Assembly (NCBI GenBank): GCA_964016885.1
Contig: OZ024742.1
Coordinates: forward strand, 266,414,001-266,478,000
Length of the DNA stretch: 64,000 bases
Direction: 5' to 3'
Source of the DNA: Eledone cirrhosa
Taxonomy: Eukaryota
In this document: piece by piece, positions 29,316 through 29,997 of the stretch
How the letters are laid out: the number at the start of each line of letters is the position of its first letter
Numbering within the stretch: the first letter of the stretch is position 1
Notes under the pieces: generated by a model
Databases searched by the model: none
Seen by the model: only the letters and a program-made list of their open reading frames with translations
Told to the model about the DNA's origin: nothing
Program-made: the position numbers and the translations under genes

Positions 29316-29346
<31 letters not shown>

Positions 29347-29496
29347 GGAAAAAATGAAACGAAATTTCATTTCTCACTCTTAGTACGGCTGTTACTTAAA
29401 TATAAGTATGTATACGTACATACATATATGTATACAGACGTACAGTAGTATGTATATATATACATACATGCCCTTTTGTTCAACAGTGACAAAGGA

Positions 29497-29539
29497 ACGA
29501 TGTACTAGTTTCAAGCTTATTAGCTATCGTCAGCACCGT
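29497..29539 (-). ncRNA. Minimal type I hammerhead ribozyme
   Basis: ACGGUG-CUGACGA-uAGCU(aaua)AGCUu-GAAA-CUAG-UA/CAUCGU. Confidence 0.85.
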
Positions 29540-29924
29540 ATACCTTCCTGCCAGATGATTGAAAGTCTGAAAGTATATACTTTCCTTCTGCATATTAACG
29601 GCTGAGCAGCCTAATTTGCATATCGAGTGAGTTAATCGGCCGGGCGTACCGAAAACGATAAATGGAAAAAATGAAACGAAATTTCATTTCTCACTCTTAG
29701 TACGGCTGTTACTTAAATATTAGTATGTATACGTACATACATATATGTATACAGACGTACAGTAGTATGTATATATATACATACATGCACACATATATAT
29801 ATGTGCGTATGGATTTACCGAGCATTTATTATAATGTTCGGTTTGTTTGTAAACAAACATCCCGAATTAAGCCGTACAGTGTTTAGCAACCATCGTTGCT
29901 ATTTTGTTCAACACTGACAAAGGA

Positions 29925-29967
29925 ACGGTGTACTAGTTTCAAGCTTATTAGCTATCGTCAGCACCGT
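29925..29967 (-). ncRNA. Minimal type I hammerhead ribozyme
   Basis: ACGGUG-CUGACGA-uAGCU(aaua)AGCUu-GAAA-CUAG-UA/CACCGU, perfect stem I. Confidence 0.87.
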
Positions 29968-29997
29968 ATACCTTCCTATATATATATATATATATAT

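What the first reader, a model, noticed from the sequence alone, without database searches (positions are those of the whole stretch)
29340..29977. Tandem HHR pair delimiting a 428-nt retrozyme-like monomer that could circularise
Seen: two near-identical HHRs on the minus strand with predicted cuts at 29931/29930 and 29503/29502, so the released unit is 29503-29930 (428 nt). It contains the segments of the solo copy at 48764-49217 in circularly permuted order, and no ORF. Established: metazoan non-LTR retrozymes are tandem repeats of a few hundred nt whose HHR-cut monomers form circRNAs. Inference: a cephalopod retrozyme or free pLTR family.
Basis: partly seen in the sequence, partly recalled or inferred. 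Interest (0 to 1): 0.8.

Follow-up and report, generated by a model that had tools for sequence, protein, structure and literature searches.

The report
Rolling-circle ribozyme repeat in an octopus
A 428-base non-coding repeat with a predicted self-cutting RNA motif occurs over ten thousand times in this likely octopus genome, and its insertions suggest it is copied, probably from a small RNA circle, by enzymes likely borrowed from Penelope-type jumping genes, which would allow a direct test of how such repeats are assumed to spread.

Summary
In detail: two type I hammerhead motifs, cut sites 428 nt apart, no ORF. The locus is one older copy of a large family: 10,573 exact core matches genome-wide, 0 for the control. 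The motif covaries across four related families.

Insertions show Penelope-like (PLE) grammar: (TA)n targets, variable 5' ends, head-to-head arms, and two fixed 3' ends 56 nt apart. All 57 two-armed insertions with both ends classed have one of each; 23 more had an unclassed end. The neighbouring autonomous PLE has the same two-end pattern but an unrelated terminal repeat.

Arms run through the cut site for up to 20 near-identical units. One insertion carries a variant in both arms found nowhere else; a second tested variant was not private.

Verdict: a new non-LTR retrozyme family, likely mobilised by a PLE, probably from a circular RNA. Cleavage, expression, the circle and the helper are unshown. 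The class is known; I found no cephalopod report. The scan earlier noted a similar hammerhead pair in a rotifer.

The parts
29920..29977 (-). Hammerhead motif 1 (type I); cut predicted between 29931 and 29930. 29977 is the truncated 5' end of the insertion, against (TA)n at 29977-30015
29503..29930 (-). 428-nt cut-to-cut unit, non-coding, GC 36%; its two ends pair through an extended stem I in the predicted fold
29714..29810 (-). Internal TA/CA-rich, self-complementary stretch (unit about 121-217); length varies between insertions
29658..29714 (-). 56-nt 'tail' between the family's two preferred 3' ends T1 (unit 217, about 29714) and T2 (unit 273, about 29658), with a strong predicted hairpin; inferred reverse-transcription start sites
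29492..29549 (-). Hammerhead motif 2; cut predicted between 29503 and 29502
29341..29502 (-). Partial next unit (unit 1-29 joined to about 141-273), ending at T2 against (TA)n at 29316-29343
48737..49216 (+). Solo copy: 28-nt inverted piece (48737-48764), unit 264-428, hammerhead core at 48902 (cut after 48932), unit 1-273 ending at T2; (TA)n on both sides
22590..22830 (+). Copy of a sister family, about 67% identical, with a covarying hammerhead (core at 22683, cut after 22713)
30887..34862 (-). Neighbouring frameshifted autonomous-type PLE (RT, then GIY-YIG-like end with a CxxxxCxxC linker) with its own different hammerhead at 31075; used as control and candidate helper type, not part of the unit

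Best explanation
This is one copy of a high-copy, non-coding repeat family with a hammerhead motif in every unit (a non-LTR retrozyme), which is likely copied into new TA repeats by the reverse transcriptase-endonuclease of a Penelope-like element, probably using a small circular RNA as template. Steps: (1) inferred: loci with two or more motifs in a row are transcribed. (2) predicted: two motifs pair through the palindromic helix III and cut out a unit-length RNA. (3) inferred from the mussel, coral and axolotl precedent: the ends, held together by an extended stem I, are ligated into a circle. (4) shown as a genomic pattern, inferred as chemistry: both target strands are primed in a (TA)n tract, one cDNA starting at T1 and the other at T2. 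(5) shown: each arm runs through the cut site, up to 20 units, and both arms carry the same haplotype; inferred: this is repeated copying of one circle. (6) shown: arms meet head to head at variable points, or only one arm remains, as at this locus.
For: Ribozyme under selection: 13 motifs from four families keep all core bases, 93% of cells pair, 48 cells change on both sides against 17 in shuffles, 0 of 500 shuffles as high (related sequences, so not a probability); the helix III loop differs in three ways yet stays palindromic. PLE grammar: two-armed insertions have one T1 and one T2 end in 23 of 23 classed cases in the position-ordered sample (8 more had an unclassed end) and 57 of 57 in the wider set (23 more unclassed; two are local duplicates). 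The resident autonomous PLE has 18 short and 13 long ends about 56 nt apart, one of each in its 3 head-to-head pairs. This matches the optional tail at one end (PMC8557442, PMC3846280 passages) and the two internal RT starts with both strands extended (PMC11167929). Continuous template: 271 of 282 post-cut motifs continue into the ribozyme's 5' half (sample partly chosen for the core). One template per insertion: repeats within an insertion disagree at 5.2% (tandem, 239 of 4574) and 5.4% (inverted, 72 of 1324) of family-polymorphic sites against 37% (10142 of 27417) between insertions, while private divergence is similar, 6.1, 4.3 and 5.0% (one large array supplies many tandem pairs). In L236 two variants are in every unit of both arms, and the 35-mer holding one of them occurs 8 times in the genome, all in that insertion, against 611 for the common allele. 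A U-U helix II base with a 2-bp helix III is the design of axolotl HHR_Amex2, which cleaves and yields circles (PMC7229834 section 15).
Against: No RNA evidence of transcription, cleavage or a circle. The second variant tested was not private: 41 matches at many loci. In the young subfamily 13 variants sit in a subset of an insertion's units, against 13 in all units, 2 in all but one and 75 in one unit (22 of 24 loci used); one is in 6 of 9 segments of L211, all in one arm, and L243, L249, L209 and L082 show period-2 sharing, which one monomer circle does not give without later exchange. Long near-identical arrays exist (20 units) and could serve as linear templates. In the anole PLE uncut RNA is the template and ribozyme mutants still insert (PMC11167929); 8 of 9 Xenopus dimers did not cleave (10.64898/2026.07.22.740005). 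No autonomous PLE sharing the unit's sequence was found, so the helper is unidentified. About five arms end within a few bases of the cut, so some cut linear templates are possible.
Confidence: 0.65

Rival explanations
1. Same non-autonomous, PLE-mobilised family, but the template is an uncut linear multimer transcribed from young homogeneous arrays; the ribozyme cuts weakly or matters at another step, and any circles are by-products.
For: Uncut RNA is the substrate of the anole PLE (PMC11167929); linear multimers exist in axolotl (PMC7229834 section 15); a 20-unit near-identical arm exists; variants shared by subsets of units; one tested variant is shared by many loci including a 9+3-unit array.
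Against: The L236 variant is fixed in both arms yet absent elsewhere in the assembly, though its source could be missing from this assembly; linear copying can only shorten arrays; inversion junctions are nearly all unique, with 4 near-coincident pairs between different loci among 80 two-armed insertions, so source structures are not visibly inherited; compensatory change keeps the ribozyme intact across families.
Confidence: 0.26
2. Satellite-like DNA spread and expanded at the DNA level (unequal exchange, DNA rolling circle); the hammerhead is a relic.
For: Old large arrays show internal duplications (L237, L082), so DNA-level exchange does act after insertion.
Against: Most copies are dispersed and hold one motif per arm (61 of 80); two fixed 3' ends, ragged 5' ends and the strict T1/T2 pairing copy the autonomous PLE's pattern.
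Confidence: 0.05
3. Ordinary terminal-repeat debris of an autonomous PLE (5'-truncated copies).
For: Ends, tails and inversions are those of PLE insertions; only about 190-250 of many thousand insertions were examined, so a rare ORF-bearing relative is not excluded.
Against: 165 of 192 upstream readings loop back into the unit and none of the other 27 enters a common coding sequence; unit-only multimers up to 20 copies; the neighbouring PLE's terminal repeat has no BLAST similarity to the unit.
Confidence: 0.04

Closest known systems
Metazoan non-LTR retrozymes (Cervera and de la Pena 2020, PMC7229834: coral, Mytilus mussel 350-390 nt, axolotl Rtz331 and Rtz353)
   Same: Short non-coding low-GC tandem units, one type I hammerhead each, thousands of copies, strongly folded monomer; U-U base of helix II with 2-bp helix III as in HHR_Amex2.
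   Different: Unit 420-500 nt, above their 170-400 range; host is probably an octopod, not mentioned in the main text (supplement unreadable); cleavage and circles were shown there, not here; the sections I read propose PLE mobilisation of circles but give no insertion-end analysis.
Vertebrate non-LTR retrozymes as non-autonomous PLE derivatives (Li, Clavereau, Pollet, bioRxiv 10.64898/2026.07.22.740005)
   Same: Monomers, dimers and multimers; co-occurrence with PLEs; this locus meets their 'two consecutive motifs' idea of an active copy.
   Different: Their evidence is co-occurrence and pLTR homology, with no mollusc sampled, and they explain tandems by later local amplification. Here no homologous pLTR was found, but insertion ends carry the PLE pattern and multimers appear to arise at insertion.
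Endonuclease-bearing Penelope-like elements (tail, head-to-head pLTRs, microsatellite targets: PMC8557442, PMC3846280; two internal RT starts: PMC11167929)
   Same: Two 3' ends, tail at one end only, inverted 5'-truncated arm, (TA)n targets, copying through the hammerhead site.
   Different: No ORF; tail 56 nt rather than 30-40; the unit closes on itself instead of running into an ORF.
Non-autonomous Chlamys PLEs such as MRC1 (PMC8557442 passage)
   Same: Non-coding, multicopy head-to-tail insertions made in trans.
   Different: Those resemble autonomous families at the 3' end, and most Chlamys lack canonical hammerheads.

Membership tests
Non-LTR retrozyme | Type I hammerhead motif in each repeat unit | tested here: met
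   Core intact in both motifs; covariation over 13 motifs of four families
Non-LTR retrozyme | Short head-to-tail units with at least two consecutive motifs at some loci | tested here: met
   15 of 80 insertions have two or more same-strand cut junctions; up to 20 units; 428 nt is above the 170-400 of PMC7229834 but inside the 51-972 of the 2026 preprint
Non-LTR retrozyme | Non-coding, GC below 45% | tested here: met
   Longest ATG frame 46 aa sense, 53 aa antisense; GC 36%
Non-LTR retrozyme | Independent of an adjoining retroelement ORF | tested here: met
   sampled, not a census
Non-LTR retrozyme | Self-cleavage of the transcript | not testable with these tools
   Precedent for U10.1-U11.1 activity only (PMC3088659 passage; PMC7229834 section 15)
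Non-LTR retrozyme | Expressed as linear and circular unit-length RNA | not testable with these tools
   No RNA holder listed; genomic multimers also contain the same junction, so junction reads alone would not decide
Canonical type I hammerhead | G10.1-C11.1 pair opening helix II | tested here: not met
   Unpaired in 11 of 13 motifs, G-C in 2 from a related family; a known natural variant
Canonical type I hammerhead | Match to an Rfam hammerhead model | tested here: not met
   (150 of 204 rows shown)
PLE-mobilised element | Two 3' ends with the tail at one end of head-to-head insertions | tested here: met
   57 of 57 classed; control PLE 3 of 3
PLE-mobilised element | Microsatellite target and ragged 5' ends | tested here: met
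   Of ends read, T2 is followed by (TA)n in 20 of 23 and T1 in 19 of 30; 5' ends spread over the unit
PLE-mobilised element | Sequence homology to the terminal repeat of a resident autonomous PLE | tested here: inconclusive
   No BLAST similarity to the neighbouring family, none seen by eye in a second family; other families not enumerated
Autonomous PLE | RT plus GIY-YIG ORF within the element | tested here: not met

The most novel reading that the evidence does not exclude
A currently active family of ribozyme-made RNA circles is being inserted by a two-headed PLE enzyme that primes both target strands at two fixed sites on one circle and rolls round it up to 20 times in each direction. The genome would then hold a direct record of rolling-circle target-primed reverse transcription, for a whole group of related circle families that standard hammerhead models miss.
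Probability: 0.5. Interest if true: 0.75.

Novelty: new member of a known kind. Interest (0 to 1): 0.57.

Why it matters
Retrozymes are assumed to spread when a borrowed reverse transcriptase copies their RNA circle, with PLEs as the favoured donor, but the papers I read support this by co-occurrence and terminal-repeat homology. This family shows the PLE insertion pattern on a non-coding unit, a strict one-T1-one-T2 rule that fits two enzymes on one template, and near-identical young insertions whose variants can be traced. It gives ready substrates for testing circle against linear template and for the unresolved PLE integration step. The locus flagged is itself an ordinary older member.

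Tried and rejected
Expression: no RNA holder listed; the one run guessed as RNA laid 0 contigs, and the other four runs laid are of unrecorded kind, so they say nothing on expression. Rfam: only simple-repeat microRNA-type noise below gathering score. Unit as the 3' repeat of the PLE 900 nt upstream: rejected; that element has its own ribozyme and ends near 30887, with other repeats in between. Search for an autonomous partner: generic hammerhead scan of 1.1 Mb of fetched DNA and a look upstream of 8 other motifs found no ORF over 83 aa; flank-against-flank comparison returned other common repeats and its output was cut. Pile-up of 5' ends at the cut: 17 BLAST ends at positions 1-4 shrank to about five real cases on direct reading, not distinguishable from even truncation; the pile-up at 129 is a simple-repeat artefact. 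Arm lengths are uncorrelated (Spearman 0.03, 57 pairs): uninformative. Pfam did not classify the neighbouring PLE (RVT_1 below cut-off); 'Neptune-like' rests on the cysteine linker seen by eye and the description in PMC8557442. A genome-wide count of the cut junction was not obtained; sampled loci were counted instead. PMC5785218 is not held.

Full report
Observation. A structural scan of both strands finds type I hammerhead cores at 29961 and 29533 (minus), cutting after 29931 and 29503, and a third at 48902 (plus); the cut-to-cut unit is 428 nt and the solo copy is its circular permutation. The unit is non-coding and 36% GC and folds at z = -6.7 with its two ends paired by an extended stem I. 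The part after the second motif lacks about 111 nt and stops at unit position 273 against (TA)n, as does the solo copy, which also has a 28-nt inverted 5' piece.

The ribozyme. Thirteen motifs from this and three related families align without gaps and keep every core base. Stems I and II covary: 93% of cells pair, 48 cells change on both sides, and none of 500 shuffles reaches either value, though the number of pairs with a two-sided change is not above shuffles (126 of 500) and the sequences are related. Position 10.1-11.1 is unpaired in 11 of 13. U10.1-U11.1 is a known natural variant (PMC3088659) and marks axolotl HHR_Amex2, which cleaves 22% as a monomer and better as a dimer (PMC7229834). 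Helix III is a 2-bp palindrome in all 13, the design that acts as a dimer (PMC4209133). Rfam does not detect the motif. Activity is predicted, not shown.

The family. The 3.0-Gb genome has 10,573 exact core matches and 28,200 matches to a 24-nt motif just after the cut, which takes in subfamilies of about 420-500 nt; reversed controls gave 0. From the first 100 core matches on contig C1 I parsed 80 insertions: 61 cross one cut site per arm, 15 cross two or more, 4 were not parsed as crossing. None adjoins a hit to the window PLE's proteins, and 165 of 192 readings upstream of the ribozyme loop back into the unit. The neighbouring PLE's best hit is an Octopus vulgaris protein at 67%, so the host is probably an octopod.

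Insertion pattern. 3' ends fall at unit 217 (T1) or 273 (T2), mostly against (TA)n; 5' ends are scattered. Among 191 distinct insertions 80 are head-to-head; 57 have one T1 and one T2 end, none has two alike, and 23 have an unclassed end (the set mixes position-ordered, best-scoring and young-subfamily loci and holds two local duplicates). The position-ordered sample alone gives 23 of 23. The young autonomous PLE beside the finding shows 18 short and 13 long ends about 56 nt apart, one of each in its 3 head-to-head pairs. This is the PLE tail at one end of an inverted insertion (PMC8557442, PMC3846280), which PMC11167929 traces to two internal RT starts with both target strands extended. I infer that a PLE protein inserts the unit in trans. 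The helper is not identified: the unit has no BLAST match to the neighbour's terminal repeat.

Circle or line. 271 of 282 post-cut motifs continue into the ribozyme's 5' half, so the template was continuous across the cut. Repeats within an insertion share family-polymorphic alleles (about 5% discordance against 37% between insertions) while their private divergence matches the background. A very young subfamily (1,994 matches) has arms of up to 20 units with almost no differences, and unit length is mostly uniform across both arms of an insertion, 422 in some and 424 in others. In L236 a variant fixed in all units of both arms occurs 8 times in the genome, all in that insertion, against 611 for the common allele: expected if one monomer was copied repeatedly. 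Against: the second variant tested is shared by many loci; 13 variants lie in subsets of units (L228 and L237 left out); long homogeneous arrays could be linear templates; the L236 source could be absent from this assembly; uncut RNA serves the anole PLE. I put a PLE-mobilised non-coding family at about 0.9 and the circle route at 0.65 overall.

Comparison and novelty. The class is described (PMC7229834) and its PLE origin argued for vertebrates (10.64898/2026.07.22.740005). Seven searches listed no cephalopod retrozyme report and no end-level analysis of retrozyme insertions; a 2026 Octopus vulgaris repeat annotation has no occurrence of ribozyme, hammerhead or retrozyme in its main text. The library lacks most subscription papers, and the supplements of PMC7229834 and of the preprint were not seen; they may list cephalopod cases. 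Repeat databases were not searched.

What I read. Preprint 10.64898/2026.07.22.740005: parts 1-3 of 5, abstract to discussion. PMC7229834: abstract, passages, sections 14, 15, 17. PMC11167929: parts 1-2 of 4. Passages only: PMC8557442, PMC4209133, PMC13282606, PMC3846280, PMC8490949, PMC3088659. PMC5785218: title in a reference list only. Labels such as Neptune-like, RTE-like and L1/Tx1-like are by eye and recall.

Verdict. Real, a new member of a known kind. The interest lies in the family-level record of how it inserts rather than in this locus. Interest 0.57.

Noticed in passing
window 30887-34862 (minus); L141-L170: Young, abundant autonomous-type PLE family (150 of 150 scored hits at 89-100% in the endonuclease part, open frames to 1257 aa) with a 56-nt tail, longer than the 30-40 nt usually described; a second family at about 61% has a similar tail (L089, L137, L218, L231).
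   Followed up: partly
L253-L254 (G000 C1:253.17-253.19 Mb): Head-to-head array of about 20.6 and 7.4 near-identical 424-nt units, with a further 8-unit array just beyond; could be a very recent insertion or partly an assembly effect.
   Followed up: partly
L028:2380-2900, L134:1342, L209:5930-7200, L086:735, L248:3495: Further tandem hammerhead repeat families (468-nt and 310-nt units) with the same motif layout; the 468-nt family keeps the canonical G-C pair at the base of helix II and shows two-end, head-to-head insertions in L098 and L134.
   Followed up: partly
window 22590-22830; L061-L080: Sister family, about 67% identical, 2,524 first-look candidates, with inverted arms and a purine mismatch at the base of helix II.
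   Followed up: partly
window 45918-47634: 418-nt inverted repeat with a hammerhead motif in each arm (46019 minus, 47533 plus), probably another head-to-head PLE-type insertion.
   Followed up: no
all fetched loci: At least ten other hammerhead motif families in 1.1 Mb of DNA, most with palindromic helix III; this genome is very rich in them.
   Followed up: no
L134 (L018, L030): An old array repeats a shortened unit joining unit position about 36 to about 266.
   Followed up: no
L232:4462-5290: A divergent GIY-YIG PLE fragment (27% to the window's endonuclease part), GC-rich.
   Followed up: no
window 9218-10777, 10852-16376, 52350-55013, 60708-62021: Long ORFs that look like LINE reverse transcriptases (RTE-like and L1/Tx1-like by eye).
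   Followed up: no
window 35150-37313, 29992-30369, 29069-29239: An 818-nt perfect inverted repeat and two shorter palindromic elements flanked by (TA)n.
   Followed up: no
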